From assembly GCA_041691775.1 (NCBI GenBank), contig JBEPUB010000013.1, forward strand, positions 11,913 to 75,912: 64,000 nucleotides of DNA, written 5' to 3'. Of the stretch, positions 23,406 through 33,540 are shown piece by piece (position 1 is the stretch's first letter; each line of letters opens with the position of its first letter). Source of the stretch: Gemmatimonadota bacterium. Its GTDB lineage: Bacteria > Gemmatimonadota > Gemmatimonadetes > Gemmatimonadales > Gemmatimonadaceae. Below the pieces are notes generated by a model. It was not told the DNA's origin and searched no databases. It saw only the letters and a list, made by a program, of their open reading frames with translations. A program made the translations under genes and the position numbers.

Positions 23406-23678
23406 GTCGTCATCCCGCCGAAGGCCGGGAACCACGGACGACGATCGCGGAATGCGTCTCGCGTTTGCAGGTGTAGATGGACTTTACGCGAGACGAGTTC
23501 GCGGCTGTGCCAATGACTTTACGCACCGTTCTTTAGGGCGCGCGCACGTAAGGACCAGCACGCGACGCCACGGTAACTGCAATGGCTACTACTACATCCA
23601 GCGAGCGCTTACACCTGCAAATGTGGACTCAAACTCAACGGCTCGTCCATGGATCCCAGCCTTCGGCGGGATGACGAC
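23406..23678. mobile_element. palindromic MITE-like / structured intergenic element, copy 1 (273 bp)
   Basis: 35-bp terminal inverted repeats gtcgtcatcccgccgaaggccgggaaccacggacga (23406-23440) and its reverse complement (23643-23678), with 3 mismatches. Internal blocks are shared with the element at 31727-32037. Confidence 0.6.
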
Positions 23679-24617: not shown

Positions 24618-27533
24618 ATGACTCGTAAGAGAATCCGCGCGGCGTTCGTTACTTGGTCGATCAGTGCGATCTTGCTCGTGGGCATCTCGATATTCACCGC
24701 GGCCGCAAATGCTCAGGCGACCGTGGCTACCCTTACGGGCCTCGTTCGACGGGCCGATGGTGCACCGGCGACGGGCGCCTTCGTCGTGGTCGCTGGACAG
24801 AGAGACACTCTCTCAACGGACGGTGCAGGCCGGTTCTCGGTACAAGTTCAAGCGAGCGTCGCGGGAACTGTACACGCATTTCAGGGTGGCGATTCAGCTA
24901 CGGCCAGCTTCTCCGCGATACCGGCTGGTGGAACGCGCGTGCTAACGCTGACGCTCGCCTCAGCTGGCGCAATGCGTGGCGCAATGTCGCAAAGCGAGGC
25001 ACGTCCTGGGGAACCACCTGTGGCGACTCCGGCGTTACGTCCCGTCGTCATAACTGCGGGGTCGGAGAATCCCGCCACGCTTCGGCCACTTCTCGACACC
25101 AGCTCGGCAACGACCGGAGGGACAATCTCCTACGCCGAAATGCGCTCGCTGCCGGCCGACGCACGCGATCCCTTGGCGCTCGCGTTCACTGTGCCGGGCG
25201 CCGCCCAGGCCACCGGATTCTTTGACACGGCACCGATCCTGTCGCTCGATGGCCAGAATTCGCTCTACACACAGTATTACATCGACGGCTTCGACAATAA
25301 CGAAGGCGTACTCGGGGGGCCCAGAATCGATCTCCCGCTCTCGGCGATCAAGCGGCTGGACGTGCGGGCCTCGACCTACGACGCAACGCTGGGCCGGAGC
25401 TCCAATGGCGTCGTTAATGAGGAAACGATGTCCGGTACCAATGCGTGGCGTGGTGAAGCGTTCGTGTACGGACACCCGGGACACTCGTTCGACGCGCACC
25501 AGGCGGTACTACCTCCAAACACGTCAGCTGGCTTTCGCCGCTCGCAGATCGGTGGGTCACTTGGCGGCCCCATCGTAAAGGGCCGAACGTTCTTGTTCGC
25601 TGCTGGCGAACGCCTGGATGAAACACAGGATCAGCCAATCGTCACGCATTACGGCAATGCCACGGGCGCGACGCAACGCACGAAGACCAAACTCTTTGCC
25701 CGCATTGATCAGCGATGGAGTAGCACGCAGACTACGACCTTGCACGCGGCGCTGAGCGACGAGCAGTACATCGGCCGAGGTGGTGGCAACGTTGTGCCCG
25801 AGGCCGACGTCGCGCAGCACCGGTTCGGCGCGCTTGTAGGCATGTCACACCACAGTGCGCTCGATCCAGCTACCACCAACACGTTCGATGCACAGGTCGC
25901 TGCATATCATTGGTACTATCCGCCAACGACGAGCTCGCTCAACACGCCGCAGATTGCGATCCTGAGCCGCGGACTTGACTCTACACTTGCGGTGGTGGGA
26001 TCGAGTGGCTTCCAGTACGACTCGCACGAGACGCAGCTCAACCTCAAGGATGAAATCGAGCGCCACGCGGGTGCGCACGACATTCGACTCGGCGCTGACA
26101 TGATCGCGGGCCGATTCCGTCTGCACGGCGACGGATCGAATCTCGCGGGGACTTACAGCGTGATCGACAGCGGACAGATACACGTGAGCGGGCGGCTCCC
26201 AACTGCGGCAGACGTGCCGAGTAATATCCCGGTGTACAACTTCTCCATCGACGCCACGCCGCAGTTCGTCGCGGCGTCTCAGACCGTTGTGGGTGCTTAC
26301 GCACAGGATAGTTGGGACGCAACGCACTCACTCAAATTGACTTACGGCGTGCGCTGGGACTATGACGACCTCACATCGCGGGGAGCCAGCTCACCCGATC
26401 TGAGCAACGTGCAGCCTCGTGCGTCGTTCAACTGGCGACCCGATTCGGCGAGCGTCATGCGTGGTGGATTCGGGATCTACTCCGGGAAGCTTCCGTACAC
26501 GATCTACTCGGACGCCTTGCAGTTCGGACCGAACGGAAGCGAGTTCGTTACACTTTACAACTCGCCGGCCACACCGTTGTCGCTTGGCCACGCGCCGTCT
26601 GCCGCGACCCTTGCCGCAGCGCGCGGGGATCTTCCGCCCCGAGAGATTCGCACTACGTTCGCGCGTGGACTCAAGAGCCCGCGCAGCTACCAATCTTCGC
26701 TCGGTTTCGAGCACGCCTTCGGTAACTCGTGGGGAATCTCGCTGGATGCCGTGTACGTTCAGACCACACATCTCCCACGTCTCTTTGATCTCAACGCAAT
26801 CACGCGTGAGATCGGTCCCGCCGACACGACCAATCTCGATCCCGCGGCGGGCGATCCGCTCAGACCGATCGCACCACGGAACGGTAGCTTTCGTCAGCAC
26901 ACCACCACCGAGACCGGTGGCAGAAGCTGGTACGCCGCCATGTTCTTCACTCTTCGGCACCAGTTCACCGAGTCATTCACCGGAGACGCGAGTTACGTGC
27001 TATCGCACGCGCGCGACAACACGGCGGACATCAACTTCGCCGCGACCAATGGCAACAACGACTTTGCCAAGGAATGGGGCGACGCTGTGAACGACCGCAG
27101 ACACAAGGTAAACGTGCGCGGTGTGTACACATGGTCGCGCCGGCTGCAGCTGAGTGGCGTCGTCGACTACCAGACGGGACAGCCGATCAACCGCGTATCG
27201 GGCCTGGATCTAATCGGGTCGGGCGGCAGTTATGGAGACGGCTTCATACGAAATACGCAACGCTTCTACGGCGTGCCCCGAAACGGCGAGAGGCTTCCGT
27301 ACGCTCTGGAGATCAATCCTGGACTGGCATATCTGCTGCCTGTCACGGGCGGCAATCTTGAACTGCGGATTGACGCGTTCAACCTTCTGAATCGCGCGAA
27401 TTTCTCCGGTTTCCCGAGTGGCCTCGCGTCGCTCGACCCGCGCACGCAGGTTGGCCGGCCTGGTGACCCGATTGTGTATCAGTTGTCCGGGCGGCCGCGC
27501 CAGATCCAGCTTTCCGCACGATACGCATTCTGA
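24618..27533 (+). CDS. TonB-dependent outer-membrane receptor with an N-terminal carboxypeptidase-regulatory-like domain
   Basis: 971 aa with a signal peptide (ILLVGISIFTAAANAQA) and a CarboxypepD_reg-like beta-sandwich (TLTGLVRRADGAPATGAFVVV..GRFSVQV). It has a long beta-barrel with a terminal aromatic residue (..QLSARYAF). Confidence 0.8.
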   Translation: MTRKRIRAAFVTWSISAILLVGISIFTAAANAQATVATLTGLVRRADGAPATGAFVVVAGQRDTLSTDGAGRFSVQVQASVAGTVHAFQGGDSATASFSAIPAGGTRVLTLTLASAGAMRGAMSQSEARPGEPPVATPALRPVVITAGSENPATLRPLLDTSSATTGGTISYAEMRSLPADARDPLALAFTVPGAAQATGFFDTAPILSLDGQNSLYTQYYIDGFDNNEGVLGGPRIDLPLSAIKRLDVRASTYDATLGRSSNGVVNEETMSGTNAWRGEAFVYGHPGHSFDAHQAVLPPNTSAGFRRSQIGGSLGGPIVKGRTFLFAAGERLDETQDQPIVTHYGNATGATQRTKTKLFARIDQRWSSTQTTTLHAALSDEQYIGRGGGNVVPEADVAQHRFGALVGMSHHSALDPATTNTFDAQVAAYHWYYPPTTSSLNTPQIAILSRGLDSTLAVVGSSGFQYDSHETQLNLKDEIERHAGAHDIRLGADMIAGRFRLHGDGSNLAGTYSVIDSGQIHVSGRLPTAADVPSNIPVYNFSIDATPQFVAASQTVVGAYAQDSWDATHSLKLTYGVRWDYDDLTSRGASSPDLSNVQPRASFNWRPDSASVMRGGFGIYSGKLPYTIYSDALQFGPNGSEFVTLYNSPATPLSLGHAPSAATLAAARGDLPPREIRTTFARGLKSPRSYQSSLGFEHAFGNSWGISLDAVYVQTTHLPRLFDLNAITREIGPADTTNLDPAAGDPLRPIAPRNGSFRQHTTTETGGRSWYAAMFFTLRHQFTESFTGDASYVLSHARDNTADINFAATNGNNDFAKEWGDAVNDRRHKVNVRGVYTWSRRLQLSGVVDYQTGQPINRVSGLDLIGSGGSYGDGFIRNTQRFYGVPRNGERLPYALEINPGLAYLLPVTGGNLELRIDAFNLLNRANFSGFPSGLASLDPRTQVGRPGDPIVYQLSGRPRQIQLSARYAF

Positions 27534-29741: not shown

Positions 29742-30559
29742 ATTCGCGAGCTAAGTCCCGATTCGCCGACGTGGACGCTGTAGCCCGTTACTTCGGCCTC
29801 ACCGCGTTGACAATATCTGCCATTGGCCCGCTGGTACTTCTCGTACTCTGGTCCGCGAGTGGCGAATGGTTCTTCCCCGCACTGATGCCACAGCGATGGA
29901 GCCCCGATGGTTGGGGATGGTTGTTCCAGAGCGGCGATCGGGTCGCGGTCGCCGTTCGCAACAGCGTCTTACTCGGAATCGCGGACGGCTTTATCGGCTG
30001 CGCAATTGCGTTTCCGATCGGCCGCGCGATCTCCCGCCTGACGGGATGGCGACGATACATGGCCGCCGCGGCCGTGTTCTCTCCGGTCGCGGCGCCACCG
30101 ATCGCATTGGGGATCGGCATCCAGTACTTCCTTTTGCGAATCGGCGTGGGCGGCACGGCCGTAGGCGTATTGCTCGCTCACCTTGTGCCGACGGTCGGCT
30201 ATCTATCGCTGTACTTCCTGAGCGTATTCGTCGTATTCGACAGCAAGATCGAGGACGAAGCGCGAACGCTCGGCGCAACGTCTCGCCAAGTGCTGTTCTA
30301 CGTAACGCTGCCGATGATGCGCAGGCAGGTCACGGAGGCCGTCGCGATTGGCTTCCTGATCTCCTGGGCGCAGTACGCACTCACACTCACGGTCGGAGGA
30401 GGAACGGTGCACACTCTTCCGCTCGAAGTGTTTTCGTACATGCGTGCGGGAAGCGGCAATTTTGCGGCATCAGCGGCGCTCGTCATGATCGTCCCGCCCA
30501 TTCTCGCACTTGCCGCTGCGCGATATGCAGCTGGACGCACTGTCGTGTCGCCGGTATGA
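29738..30559 (+). CDS. ABC transporter permease (YnjC C-half-like)
   Basis: GTG 29738 overlaps the upstream stop (GTGA). EAA loop EDEARTLGATSRQVLFYVTLPMM. Polytopic. Confidence 0.8.
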   Translation: MNSRAKSRFADVDAVARYFGLTALTISAIGPLVLLVLWSASGEWFFPALMPQRWSPDGWGWLFQSGDRVAVAVRNSVLLGIADGFIGCAIAFPIGRAISRLTGWRRYMAAAAVFSPVAAPPIALGIGIQYFLLRIGVGGTAVGVLLAHLVPTVGYLSLYFLSVFVVFDSKIEDEARTLGATSRQVLFYVTLPMMRRQVTEAVAIGFLISWAQYALTLTVGGGTVHTLPLEVFSYMRAGSGNFAASAALVMIVPPILALAAARYAAGRTVVSPV

Positions 30560-31644
30560 GGCATGATGGCACGTCGGAAACAGTGCCGGGCCGACCGACT
30601 GCGCTCCGCCTGCGCGATGTCTCCGCAGACTTCGGCGACGAAGCTGGGCTTCGCGACGTCTCGTTCGACGTCGCCAACGCCGAGCGGTTCGTCATCGTCG
30701 GTCCCTCCGGCGCGGGCAAGACCACGCTGCTGCGAGCGATCGCTGGATTGATCCCCGTAACACGTGGCACCGTCGAGATCGCCGGACACGACCGCACGCA
30801 TCTTGTTCCCGAGCGACGCGACGCGGTCTATCTGCACCAGACGCCACTGCTCTTCCCGCATCTCGACGTGTTCGAGAACGTCGCATTCCCGCTACGCGTT
30901 AGGGGAGTTGCCGCGGCCGAGATCCGCTCTCGCGTCGCAAGCGTGCTCGACTCCGTGCAGCTCGGCGCATTCGCAACTCGGCCGCCGCATGCCCTGAGCG
31001 GCGGCCAGCGCCATCGCGTTGCGCTCGCACGGGCAATCGTTGCGCGTCCGGCAGTACTGCTACTCGATGAGCCGCTCTCGTCATTGGATCCGTCGCTGCG
31101 CGTTGACGTCCGCGAGGTAATCCTCGGCGCTGCGCGTGAATACCGGCTCGCACTTGTGATAGTCACTCACGACCTGGACGACGCAGCCTTGATGGGTGAT
31201 CGCATCGGCGTACTGCTCGAGGGACGCCTCAAGCAAGTTGCAACTCCCGCCACGTTGTTCGCACACCCTGCATCGCTTTCTATCGCGAGATTGCTCGCGA
31301 TCCCGAACGAGGTGCGTGGAGTCATCGAGGGTGAGCGTGCGTTTTCCTCGCCACTCAACGAGATGCCACTCATCTCAAACTCGCAGAACGGGAGCGCCAT
31401 CATGGTATTTCGCCCCGACGCGGTGCAGATCATGCCTGAGAGCGCTGACACCGCCCAATGCACCGGCGAAATCGTCGAGATACGCCACCGGCCGCAGCAG
31501 ACGACGGTGCGAGTGCGAGTCGCGACGCGGCTCGGGACAATAATGATCGAAGCCGCCATTGACGCTATGAGCGTTCCCGCAATCGGTACCATTGTTGGAT
31601 TGTCAATCGATGCTCGCCGCGTTTCAGTGTTCGCTGATTCGTAG
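30556..31644 (+). CDS. ABC transporter ATP-binding protein with a C-terminal TOBE-like domain
   Basis: The true start ATG 30556 overlaps the permease stop (ATGA). Walker A GPSGAGKTT, signature LSGGQRHRVALARA, Walker B LLLDEP. The 5' 690 nt of ORF 29866..31644 is an out-of-frame artefact over the permease gene. Confidence 0.88.
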   Translation: MRHDGTSETVPGRPTALRLRDVSADFGDEAGLRDVSFDVANAERFVIVGPSGAGKTTLLRAIAGLIPVTRGTVEIAGHDRTHLVPERRDAVYLHQTPLLFPHLDVFENVAFPLRVRGVAAAEIRSRVASVLDSVQLGAFATRPPHALSGGQRHRVALARAIVARPAVLLLDEPLSSLDPSLRVDVREVILGAAREYRLALVIVTHDLDDAALMGDRIGVLLEGRLKQVATPATLFAHPASLSIARLLAIPNEVRGVIEGERAFSSPLNEMPLISNSQNGSAIMVFRPDAVQIMPESADTAQCTGEIVEIRHRPQQTTVRVRVATRLGTIMIEAAIDAMSVPAIGTIVGLSIDARRVSVFADS

Positions 31645-31689
31645 CCGGATGCGCAGGTCCGGCGCGCGACCTGGAGTGGTTCCCCGCTG

Positions 31690-31720
31690 TTGAGAGTCGT
31701 CATCCCGCCGAAGGCCGGGA
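31690..31720. repeat. solo extra copy of the element arm core (ttgagaGtcgtcatcccgccgaaggccggga)
   Basis: It duplicates 31741-31771 with 1 mismatch, 51 bp upstream of it. Confidence 0.8.
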
Positions 31721-31726
31721 GTTGAT

Positions 31727-32037
31727 ACGCACGGAGATCGTTGAGACTCGTCATCCCGCCGAAGGCCGGGAACCATGGACGAGGACTTAGGCGTACACCT
31801 CCGCCATGCAGGTGTGGTCAGGACCAGAGGCGCGACGAGTCCACGGCTGTTGAAAACGACATGCACAGATCTTCACCGTTGCTTCAGAAGATGAGCGGTG
31901 CGCGGTGCACGGTAACCGAACCGACCCGTCGCTTTGCCGAGTTCTCCGACGCCTGCAAGCCGGGAATTCACTCGTACATCCTCGTCCATGGTTCCCGGCC
32001 TTCGGCGGGATGACGAGTCTCAACGATCTCCGTGCGT
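31727..32037. mobile_element. palindromic MITE-like / structured intergenic element, copy 2 (311 bp)
   Basis: Perfect 58-bp inverted repeat: acgcacggagatcgttgagactcgtcatcccgccgaaggccgggaaccatggacgagg (31727-31784) and its exact reverse complement (31980-32037), around a 195-bp core. It lies between two convergent genes. Confidence 0.7.
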
Positions 32038-32112
32038 GATGGAGAACATAGCTCCCCGCTTCGCAAGCTTTCTACTGTTATCCGTCAGACGCACGCTCAC
32101 CCGAAAGCCGAT

Positions 32113-33540
32113 CTAGCTTGTCGCGAACCAACGGGCGATCGTCTTCACCAGTCCCGTGAACCGGGACTTCTGAAAATCGTCGGCCGCCTGCTTGATCGCT
32201 TCCGGATAGGTCGGGTAGGGATGAATCGTATTTGCCAGTTTGGCGGCTGACAGTCCGTTGCGCATGGCGACGGTGATCTCGCCGATCATGTTGCCCGCAC
32301 CGTAGCCGAGTATGTGACCGCCGAGGATTTTGCCGCGGGAAGTGGTGATGAGCTTCACCATTCCGTCGGTATGACCGTCGGTCACCGCTCGATCCACATC
32401 GCTGAATTTTCTGCGCCAGACTCGCACGGAGTCACCGTATTTTTCTCGCGCCTCATTCTCCGTGAGCCCAACGTGCGCCAGTTCCGGTGCGGTGTACGTT
32501 ACCCAGGGAACGGCATCATAGTTGGCCTTCCCCGCGAATGGAAAGAATGCGTTGCGCACGACGAGGCGCGCCTGGTAGTCGGCGACATGCGTGAAACGGA
32601 GCGGTCCGACACAATCGCCAGCTGCCCAGACATCGGACGCTGTGGTTTTAAGCGTATGATCTACAACGATCCCGTGCTTGTTCGCCTCGATACCGGCCCT
32701 TTCGAGATCCAGAGTTGCGACGTTGGGCGCTCGCCCGGTCGCGACGAGCAAGGCATCGCCCTCAAGCGTGACCGCGCGGCCATCGCTCGTGATCGCGTCA
32801 AGTTGGATGCGTCCATTCGCGCTGGCGACGCGGGTTGCCTTGGTACCGAGCAGTAGTGTAACGCCATCGGCGATGAGGCAGGCGCCGAGCATGTCAGCTA
32901 GCTCCCGGTCCTCGCGCGGAAGGATCTGCGCAGCGGCCTCGATGATCTGTACCGATGTACCAAGGCGCGCGAAGGCCTGGGCGAGTTCCAGTCCAATCGG
33001 ACCGCCGCCCAGGATGAGTAGCGTATGGGGTTGCTGCTCGAGCGAGAAGATGGTCTCATTGGTAAGGTAGGGAACCTTGTCGAGCCCCTCGATAGATGGA
33101 ATCGCTGGTTTGGATCCCGTTGCGATGGTTATCCGCTTGGCTGTGAGGGTGTCACCGTTCACCGTGAGAGTGCGTTCACCGACGAAACGGGCGGCACCGT
33201 CGATGACATCAACGCCTAACGACCGGAACCGGTCCGGGCTGTCATGTGGCGCGATGCGCTCCTGCGCTTCGCGTACCCAGCGCGTTACACCGGAGAAGTT
33301 CACCTCTACATCGTGAGCCGCGATGCCAAAGCGTGCGGCATTTCGTGCTTCGTGCGCTATGCGTGCACACGCGATCATGGCCTTGCTCGGTACGCAGCCA
33401 TTCCACAAACATTCGCCTCCCAGGCGGCTCTGTTCGATCAACGCGACGCGCGCGCCGATCCCCGCACTTCCCGCGCTCGTTACGAGACCGGCCGTGCCGC
33501 CACCGATCACGATCATGTCGTAGTGCGTCGCGCTCGCCAT
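32113..33540 (-). CDS. class-I pyridine-nucleotide disulfide oxidoreductase (dihydrolipoyl dehydrogenase / MerA-like, no metal-binding extensions)
   Basis: True start ATG 33540 (MASATHYDMIVIGGGTAGLV). Redox-active disulfide GGECLWNGCVPSK, second dinucleotide fold LILGGGPIGLE, and dimerisation motif IHPYPTYPEA. The upstream 93 codons of the ORF look non-coding. Confidence 0.8.
   Translation of the reverse strand: MASATHYDMIVIGGGTAGLVTSAGSAGIGARVALIEQSRLGGECLWNGCVPSKAMIACARIAHEARNAARFGIAAHDVEVNFSGVTRWVREAQERIAPHDSPDRFRSLGVDVIDGAARFVGERTLTVNGDTLTAKRITIATGSKPAIPSIEGLDKVPYLTNETIFSLEQQPHTLLILGGGPIGLELAQAFARLGTSVQIIEAAAQILPREDRELADMLGACLIADGVTLLLGTKATRVASANGRIQLDAITSDGRAVTLEGDALLVATGRAPNVATLDLERAGIEANKHGIVVDHTLKTTASDVWAAGDCVGPLRFTHVADYQARLVVRNAFFPFAGKANYDAVPWVTYTAPELAHVGLTENEAREKYGDSVRVWRRKFSDVDRAVTDGHTDGMVKLITTSRGKILGGHILGYGAGNMIGEITVAMRNGLSAAKLANTIHPYPTYPEAIKQAADDFQKSRFTGLVKTIARWFATS

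What the first reader, a model, noticed from the sequence alone, without database searches (positions are those of the whole stretch)
31690..32037. 311-bp element with a perfect 58-bp inverted repeat plus a solo extra arm
31727-31784 and 31980-32037 are exact reverse complements (58/58) around a 195-bp core. The region could therefore fold into a very long hairpin as RNA or ssDNA.

The arm contains the REP-like core gtcatcccgccgaaggccggg. A further copy of the arm core sits 51 bp upstream (31690-31720, 1 mismatch).

GAT flanks both ends (31724-31726 and 32038-32040). That is a possible 3-bp target duplication but could be chance.

The element fills the space between two convergent genes. Perfect arm identity suggests recent mobility or strong structural selection. 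No transposase is present in the window.
Basis: seen in the sequence. Interest (0 to 1): 0.6.

Follow-up and report, generated by a model that had tools for sequence, protein, structure and literature searches.

The report
Genus-specific REP-like palindromic repeat copy
The long hairpin between two convergent genes is real. It is one copy of a short non-coding palindromic repeat family scattered about 60 times through this genome and found only in its genus, so it is an ordinary kind of bacterial "junk" repeat for which no transposase could be identified.

Summary
Window 31727-31785 and 31979-32037 are exact reverse complements (59/59, one more than reported) around a 193-bp core. An extra arm lies 51 bp upstream.

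It is a family member, not a singleton. The 22-nt arm core GTCATCCCGCCGAAGGCCGGGA ("REP-A") occurs 65 times in the 3.36-Mb genome. It appears as at least 16 inverted doublets of 242-279 bp (arm core to arm core), as solo arms and as tandem arm arrays. All 33 clusters are intergenic, and 16 sit at contig ends.

The family is multi-copy only in this genus: 12 of 22 species there, and none of the other 89 genera sampled in the order. At 4 of 4 loci where both flanks could be traced, relatives have no doublet, including relatives that carry the family.

No consistent target duplication exists, so the GAT flank is chance. The Y1 (RAYT-type) genes in this genome and genus are flanked by other repeats, never by REP-A.

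This copy has no near-identical source copy; its core is only about 60% identical to any other. The perfect arms therefore do not show recent transposition.

Verdict: a new member of the REP/REPIN/BIME-like kind, with the mobilising enzyme unknown. Low to moderate interest.

The parts
31689..31720 (+). Extra (third) REP-A arm unit, in direct orientation 51 nt upstream of the left arm core
   Evidence: It matches 31740-31771 at 31/32. The exact core lies at 31699-31720. Tandem outer arms at a 51-52-nt period recur in other family members.
31727..31785 (+). Left arm of the perfect 59-nt inverted repeat: 23 nt of outer arm, then the 35-nt conserved arm TCGTCATCCCGCCGAAGGCCGGGAACCATGGACGA
   Evidence: The outer 23 nt follow the weaker family consensus tGCGCCGgGtTCGccGAATGTC.
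31750..31771 (+). REP-A core hairpin: 7-bp stem, one bulged base, GAA loop
   Evidence: Exact core match. DNA fold of -5.3 kcal/mol with a bulge at core position 13.
31786..31978 (.). 193-bp non-coding interior. It carries the family's inner blocks (ATGCAGGTGT near 31806; ACGCCTGCAAG near 31948) and is otherwise diverged.
   Evidence: Alignment of 16 doublets. Interior identity to other members is at most 0.61. ORFs overlapping it have no Pfam match above threshold. No Rfam match.
31979..32037 (-). Right arm of the perfect 59-nt inverted repeat
   Evidence: The core lies at 31993-32014 on the minus strand.
23406..23678 (.). Second full family member in the same window (arm cores 23409-23430 + and 23654-23675 -), of the same long-core subfamily
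   Evidence: it is C13_35321 in genome coordinates.
30559..31644 (+). Upstream flanking gene: ABC-transporter ATPase (3' end at 31644; start approximate)
   Evidence: Pfam ABC_tran and TOBE_2. Translation.
32113..33540 (-). Downstream convergent gene: pyridine-nucleotide-disulphide oxidoreductase (stop at 32113-32115; start approximate)
   Evidence: Pfam Pyr_redox_2 and Pyr_redox_dim. Translation.

Best explanation
The element is one copy of a genus-restricted, non-coding, non-autonomous repeat family that I call REP-A. The basic unit is a roughly 35-nt arm containing an imperfect-palindrome hairpin. [quoted passage not shown] This matches the organisation of REP, REPIN and BIME elements.

Shown here: the family exists; its copies are strictly intergenic; they occupy different loci in different species; they carry no target-site duplication; and they encode nothing.

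Inferred: spread occurs through a single-stranded hairpin intermediate, handled in trans by an HUH/Y1 (RAYT or IS200-like) or other enzyme. That enzyme is not linked to the repeats and was not identified.

Inferred: the perfect 59-nt arms of this copy come from copying or conversion of one arm onto the other within the locus, not from a recent transposition.
For: Family and copy number: 65 core matches with 3 or fewer mismatches and 128 BLAST matches in the genome. At least 16 plus/minus pairs are spaced 214-251 nt apart.

Defined subfamilies: one roughly 243-bp type has 11 polar copies whose interiors are 64-91% identical. This copy groups, weakly, with the 271-279-bp type.

Hairpin: the core folds as a 7-bp stem with a bulge. 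The species-level variant (C to T) falls exactly on the bulged base, and that position is the only hot spot among the stem positions of the core.

Location: 0 of 33 clusters lie inside genes. Of 17 clusters that could be placed, 8 lie between convergent genes, against 17% expected (P = 0.004).

Distribution: multi-copy in 12 of 22 species of the genus, with 4-75 copies each. Of the 295 sampled genomes from the other 89 genera of the order, three have a single one-mismatch hit and the rest have none.

Unoccupied sites: at this locus G007 and G002 keep the same convergent gene pair with spacers of only tens of bp, against 468 bp here. The C1, C3 and C6 doublets are absent in relatives that themselves carry the family.

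No target duplication at the boundaries of 39 elements.

No coding or known RNA.

Same anatomy elsewhere: 24 soil and peat metagenome contigs hold the arm, several of them as full doublets with the same layout.
Against: No cognate transposase was found:
- The RAYT-type gene of the genus is flanked by a different repeat (GGGGTCAGAGTGCA) and is a pseudogene in this genome.
- The Y1+HTH gene is flanked by its own 20-mer.
- No Y1 gene lies in any fetched locus that holds a REP-A arm.
- No protein family recurs next to the arms.

The doublet spacers (140-195 nt) are longer than in described REPINs (34-110 nt in SBW25, PMC3337134).

The roughly 243-bp subfamily behaves like a discrete unit, which also fits a MITE.

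Mobility is inferred only from between-species presence and absence at about 70-80% DNA identity.
Confidence: 0.8

Rival explanations
1. It is a classical terminal-inverted-repeat MITE: a deletion derivative of a DDE-transposase insertion sequence, mobilised in trans by cut-and-paste or copy-paste with target-site duplication.
For: The roughly 243-bp subfamily is a discrete polar unit with homology along its whole length, 35-60-nt terminal inverted repeats and 11 copies. This copy has a GAT on both flanks.
Against: None of the other 38 elements has a flank match longer than 2 bp, and the outer ends of the inverted repeat vary from 0 to 25 nt. Solo arms and tandem arm arrays are common. No plus/minus arm pair encloses a gene, and no protein family recurs next to arms. 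The element has no match in the plasmid or phage collections.
Confidence: 0.12
2. It is a host-functional structured element kept by selection for its hairpin, for example a transcription-terminating or mRNA-stabilising stem-loop between convergent genes, or a protein-binding site.
For: The family is strictly intergenic and enriched between convergent genes. The fold is very stable. REP and BIME elements in E. coli have such secondary roles (established knowledge; PMC3479197 abstract).
Against: It is absent from the orthologous sites of related species. The variable arm segment shows no compensatory co-variation. There is no T-tract terminator or promoter and no Rfam match. Both orientations occur.
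Confidence: 0.06
3. The perfect arms are an assembly artefact (a palindromic chimera or collapsed repeat), not a real feature.
For: The family breaks the assembly: 16 of 58 contig ends carry it. Read support could not be checked.
Against: The interior is non-palindromic and unique, and both flanks continue into intact convergent genes that are syntenic with relatives. The outer 23 nt of the arms occur only at this locus, so they cannot be a consensus collapsed from other copies. Other members also have perfect extended arms of 18-24 nt.
Confidence: 0.02

Closest known systems
REP / REPIN elements with RAYT transposases (Bertels & Rainey 2011, PMC3116915; PMC3337134)
   Same: The unit is a short imperfect palindrome. 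It occurs as singlets, inverted doublets that form hairpins, and higher-order clusters. It is extragenic, lineage-specific and lacks a target duplication. Spacers differ between copies.
   Different: No RAYT is flanked by this repeat in any genome examined. The doublets are 242-311 bp rather than about 90-150 bp. There are about 60 copies rather than hundreds. The interiors fall into conserved polar subfamilies.
BIMEs (bacterial interspersed mosaic elements) of E. coli
   Same: It is a mosaic of palindromic units. Here REP-A arms adjoin a second palindrome, GTCATTCCCGCGAAAGCGGGAATGAC, and conserved linker blocks. It lies at the 3' ends of genes.
   Different: The sequences are unrelated. Arms in arrays are in direct rather than alternating orientation. 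No binding of IHF, gyrase or Pol I has been tested.
Long palindromic MITE-like repeats (ERIC, Correia/NEMIS, RUP)
   Same: It is a 100-300-bp imperfect palindrome, non-coding, intergenic, and able to fold as one long hairpin.
   Different: As I recall (not checked here), Correia elements duplicate a TA target and RUP has a proposed IS partner. Here neither a target duplication nor a partner was found.

Membership tests
REP (repetitive extragenic palindrome) | Short (about 20-40 nt) imperfect palindrome able to form a stem-loop | tested here: met
   The core folds as a 7-bp stem with one bulge and a GAA loop, -5.3 kcal/mol. Sequence variation concentrates at the bulged position.
REP (repetitive extragenic palindrome) | High copy number, exclusively extragenic | tested here: met
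   65 cores in 33 clusters, with 0 inside genes on an approximate ORF map. The copy number is modest compared with the hundreds seen in Pseudomonas or E. coli.
REPIN | Two REPs of the same class in inverted orientation that form a hairpin with a spacer | tested here: met
   At least 16 plus/minus doublets in the genome. All fold strongly. The spacers (140-195 nt) are longer than those described (PMC3337134).
REPIN-RAYT system | A single-copy RAYT (Y1 HUH transposase) flanked by REPs/REPINs of the same class | tested here: not met
   Three PF01797 loci are present in the genome. None is flanked by REP-A, and they carry other repeats. No Y1 gene lies in any fetched REP-A locus from relatives or metagenome contigs.
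REPIN-RAYT system | Conserved 5' GTAG-type tetranucleotide next to the palindrome, as in E. coli and Pseudomonas REPs | tested here: inconclusive
   In this genome the arm starts GTCGTCAT. Some copies in relative G004 read GTAGTCAT. No cleavage data exist.
TIR-MITE (DDE-transposase derived) | Target-site duplication of fixed length at the element ends | tested here: not met
   Of 39 elements, 38 have a 0-2-bp flank match and only this one has 3 bp; a chance occurrence among 39 has probability 0.46.
TIR-MITE (DDE-transposase derived) | An autonomous IS with the same terminal inverted repeats | tested here: not met
   No arm pair encloses a gene, and no protein family recurs near arms. There is no match in plasmids or phages. 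The assembly is fragmented at these repeats, so an unassembled partner cannot be fully excluded.
Structured non-coding RNA | Match to a curated family, or compensatory base changes that keep the fold | tested here: not met
   No Rfam match at E <= 1. Within-element arm complementarity is no higher than between-element similarity in the variable segment.

The most novel reading that the evidence does not exclude
REP-A, together with its relatives GTCATTCCCGCGAAAGCGGGAATGAC and GTCATCCCCGCGAAAGCGGGGATC, could be a REP superfamily that spreads without any linked RAYT. Spread would then depend on an unrecognised enzyme or on a replication or repair route acting on hairpins. That same route would generate the tandem arm arrays and would homogenise the two arms of a doublet, giving 59/59 arms around a diverged core.
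Probability: 0.12. Interest if true: 0.55.

Novelty: new member of a known kind. Interest (0 to 1): 0.25.

Why it matters
Mostly for annotation and assembly:
- The family explains a quarter of the contig breaks in this assembly.
- It should be masked as a repeat, so that the 60-90-codon ORFs that overlap it are not called as genes.
- It gives a species-level marker for an uncultured soil and peat genus. A congeneric MAG is labelled Gemmatimonadetes bacterium palsa_1236 in NCBI.

Biologically, it adds a REP-like family with no RAYT flanked by it, alongside a decayed RAYT whose own repeat is nearly gone from this genome. That is a small data point for the idea that REPIN populations depend on their RAYT.

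Tried and rejected
- Rfam scan of the region: nothing.
- Promoter and terminator scan: nothing.
- Tandem-repeat finder: only a trivial 7-mer.
- Pfam on the three ORFs overlapping the element: nothing above threshold.
- Plasmid and phage collections: no match.
- Exact-protein look-up of the flanking oxidoreductase, to find sister assemblies: not on record.
- Metagenome scan with a unique flank, to find an empty-site allele: no hit.
- RAYT hypothesis: tested in the genome, the genus and metagenome contigs, and not supported for this repeat class.
- A gene flanked by the second palindrome (REP-B): only an unrelated ~427-codon ORF with a membrane-protein-like N-terminus (not searched).
- Integron attC-like reading: some arms have GTTGAAT/ATTCAAC at their outer ends. 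I rejected this by inspection, because the order of the two half-sites is the reverse of attC and the copies are dispersed in core intergenic spacers rather than in cassette arrays.
- Base-pair-exact insertion boundaries: not obtainable, because relatives are only 70-80% identical and the spacers do not align.

Full report
**Observation**

The region was read directly and scanned for repeats. Window 31727-31785 and 31979-32037 are exact reverse complements. A genome-wide scan for perfect inverted repeats gives 59/59 with a 193-nt loop.

This is the longest perfect inverted repeat (loop of 700 nt or less) in the 3.36-Mb assembly; the next longest are 41 nt. With mismatches allowed, the arms extend to 89 nt at 87%.

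A third arm at 31689-31720 matches 31740-31771 at 31/32, 51 nt upstream. GAT flanks both ends.

The 311 nt fold far better than shuffled controls: RNA -201.9 kcal/mol, z = -16; DNA -116.6 kcal/mol, z = -14.

The element fills most of a 468-bp spacer between an ABC-transporter ATPase gene (ends at 31644) and a convergent pyridine-nucleotide-disulphide oxidoreductase gene (ends at 32113).

**It is a family member**

The window is contig 13 of a 29-contig, 3.36-Mb assembly. The 22-nt arm core GTCATCCCGCCGAAGGCCGGGA has 65 matches with 3 or fewer mismatches. The full element gives 128 BLAST matches, nearly all of them to the arms.

Sixteen matches form plus/minus pairs spaced 214-251 nt apart. These are full doublets of 242-279 nt measured arm to arm. 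One of them lies in the same window at 23406-23678.

All doublets share three features:
- the 35-nt arm TCGTCATCCCGCCGAAGGCCGGGAACCATGGACGA;
- a weaker outer arm of about 22 nt;
- inner blocks GTTCGCAGGxGT and ACACCTGCGAAC.

The remaining arms are solo, or stand in tandem at 51-56-nt periods, or alternate with a second palindrome, GTCATTCCCGCGAAAGCGGGAATGAC ("REP-B", 58-134 copies depending on how loosely the motif is matched), in units of about 142 nt.

Metagenome relatives show arm-arm-core-arm-arm layouts at a 52-nt period. Two sister species show arrays of up to seven arms at 29-31 nt.

**Subfamilies**

With the arms stripped off, eleven copies in this genome form a polar subfamily of about 243 bp. 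Their interiors are 64-91% identical and occur in both orientations.

A second subfamily of 271-279 bp holds C1:211944, the window copy at 23406, and three copies from sister species G017.

The element under study falls closest to this second group, but at only 0.60-0.61 identity. Shuffled sequence gives a mean of 0.48 and a maximum of 0.55. It has no near-identical source copy anywhere in the assembly.

**Where the copies lie**

On an approximate ORF map, 0 of 33 clusters lie within genes. Sixteen clusters sit within a few hundred bases of contig ends, so the family breaks the assembly and its copy number is underestimated.

Of the 17 clusters that could be placed, 8 lie between convergent genes, 6 between tandem genes and 3 between divergent genes. 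The background share of convergent spacers is 17% (P = 0.004).

**Distribution and unoccupied sites**

The core is multi-copy in 12 of 22 species of the genus. Copy numbers are 75, 69, 63, 28, 23, 22, 18 and fewer. Two species carry a C-to-T variant.

In 301 genomes drawn from 90 genera of the order, only this genus has the family. Three other genomes each have a single one-mismatch hit.

Exact arm matches in public genome records occur only in two MAGs. One is labelled "Gemmatimonadetes bacterium palsa_1236"; its coordinates show that it is congener G031. Arm matches also occur in 24 soil and peat metagenome contigs.

At this locus, congeners G007 and G002 keep the same convergent gene pair with spacers of only tens of bp.

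I joined the flanks of four other doublets and searched the genus with them:
- The C1, C3 and C6 sites align straight across the junction or with only tens of extra bases. This holds even in species that carry the family (G017, G018, G031, G013).
- At the C2 site synteny is not kept, and G031 has a lone arm in the opposite orientation after the same gene.

Copies thus occupy different loci in different species. This argues for gain after speciation. It is not a within-population polymorphism, and base-exact boundaries cannot be read at 70-80% identity.

**What kind of element**

*Target duplication.* At the inverted-repeat boundary of 39 full elements, the flank match is 0-2 bp in 38 and 3 bp only here. 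The chance of at least one such match among 39 is 0.46. The outward extent of the inverted repeat varies from 0 to 25 nt. This does not fit a DDE-type MITE.

*Hairpin.* The core folds as a 7-bp stem with one bulged base and a GAA loop. The between-species variant falls on the bulge. That position is the only variable hot spot among the stem positions of the core.

*Transposase.* The genome has three Y1_Tnp (PF01797) loci:
- A RAYT-like gene with an in-frame TAG, plus a fragment. The intact orthologues in G015, G018 and G004 are flanked by a different repeat, AAACCGGGGTCAGAGTGCA, of which this genome retains 9 or fewer copies.
- A Y1+HTH gene flanked by its own inverted 20-mer, GTCAGGTCTTGCGCCGTGCG, which has 13 copies.

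No Y1 gene lies in any fetched REP-A locus, whether from this genome, from relatives or from metagenome contigs. No protein family recurs beside the arms.

The defining REPIN-RAYT linkage is therefore tested and not met, although the anatomy is REP/REPIN/BIME-like (definitions from PMC3337134).

*Coding or RNA function.* There is no Rfam match, no promoter or intrinsic terminator, and no Pfam match above threshold for the overlapping ORFs.

*Co-variation.* The 22-nt variable segment between the arm and the inner block is no more complementary within an element (0.54) than left and right segments are between elements (0.58-0.60). The palindromic symmetry therefore reflects two inverted copies of one arm module. 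It does not reflect selection on pairing.

**The perfect arms**

The outer 23 nt of both arms match the family consensus at only about 12 of 22 positions (my count from the consensus) and occur nowhere else in the genome. Yet the two arms are identical to each other. Complementarity then falls abruptly to about 60% (my count by eye) inside the 59 nt.

Combined with a diverged interior and no source copy, this points to one arm having been copied or converted onto the other at this locus. Plausible routes are template switching or repair on the hairpin. It does not point to recent transposition. This step is inference only.

Two other members show the same behaviour, with perfect outer extensions of 18 and 24 nt.

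**Limits**

- The gene map used for the context statistics is a heuristic based on ORF length and GC3.
- Relatives are MAGs of 67-99% completeness, so the absence of a transposase from them is weak evidence.

**Verdict**

The proposed target duplication is chance, and the inference of recent mobility from the perfect arms is not supported.

This is a new member of a well-known kind of element, and the enzyme that mobilises it is unidentified.

Noticed in passing
Genome-wide, e.g. G000 C15:69144-69229, C5:44717-44793, C3:1459-1538; adjoining many REP-A arms (e.g. C6:111569-111870): A second palindromic repeat, REP-B (GTCATTCCCGCGAAAGCGGGAATGAC), has 58-134 copies. It forms classic REPIN-sized inverted doublets with 25-32-nt spacers. 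It also alternates with REP-A arms in tandem units of about 142 nt. A third related class, GTCATCCCCGCGAAAGCGGGGATC, also exists. All three start with GTCAT and look like one superfamily. No flanked transposase was found.
   Followed up: partly
G000 C2:357699-358517 (-) and C2:347865-348239 (-), outside the window: A RAYT-type Y1 transposase gene with an in-frame TAG, plus a truncated second copy. Intact orthologues in congeners G015, G018 and G004 are flanked by inverted AAACCGGGGTCAGAGTGCA repeats. This genome keeps 9 or fewer copies of that repeat, which looks like a decaying REPIN-RAYT system.
   Followed up: partly
G000 C2:23856-24829, outside the window: A Y1_Tnp gene of about 295 aa with a C-terminal extension (start near 24744, minus strand). 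It is bracketed by inverted copies of a 20-mer, GTCAGGTCTTGCGCCGTGCG, that occurs 13 times in the genome. This looks like a separate small repeat-plus-Y1 system.
   Followed up: no
G000 C17:200-1275: Three almost identical REP-A doublets stand in tandem (341-bp and 324-bp repeat units) at a contig start. Overall, 16 of 58 contig ends carry REP-A, so the family is a main cause of assembly breaks.
   Followed up: partly
G018 C8:6406-6857 (L103) and G004 C42:6966-7275 (L111): In sister species the arm core is expanded into arrays of five to seven direct copies at a 29-31-nt period on one side of a doublet. This is minisatellite-like growth of a REP unit.
   Followed up: partly
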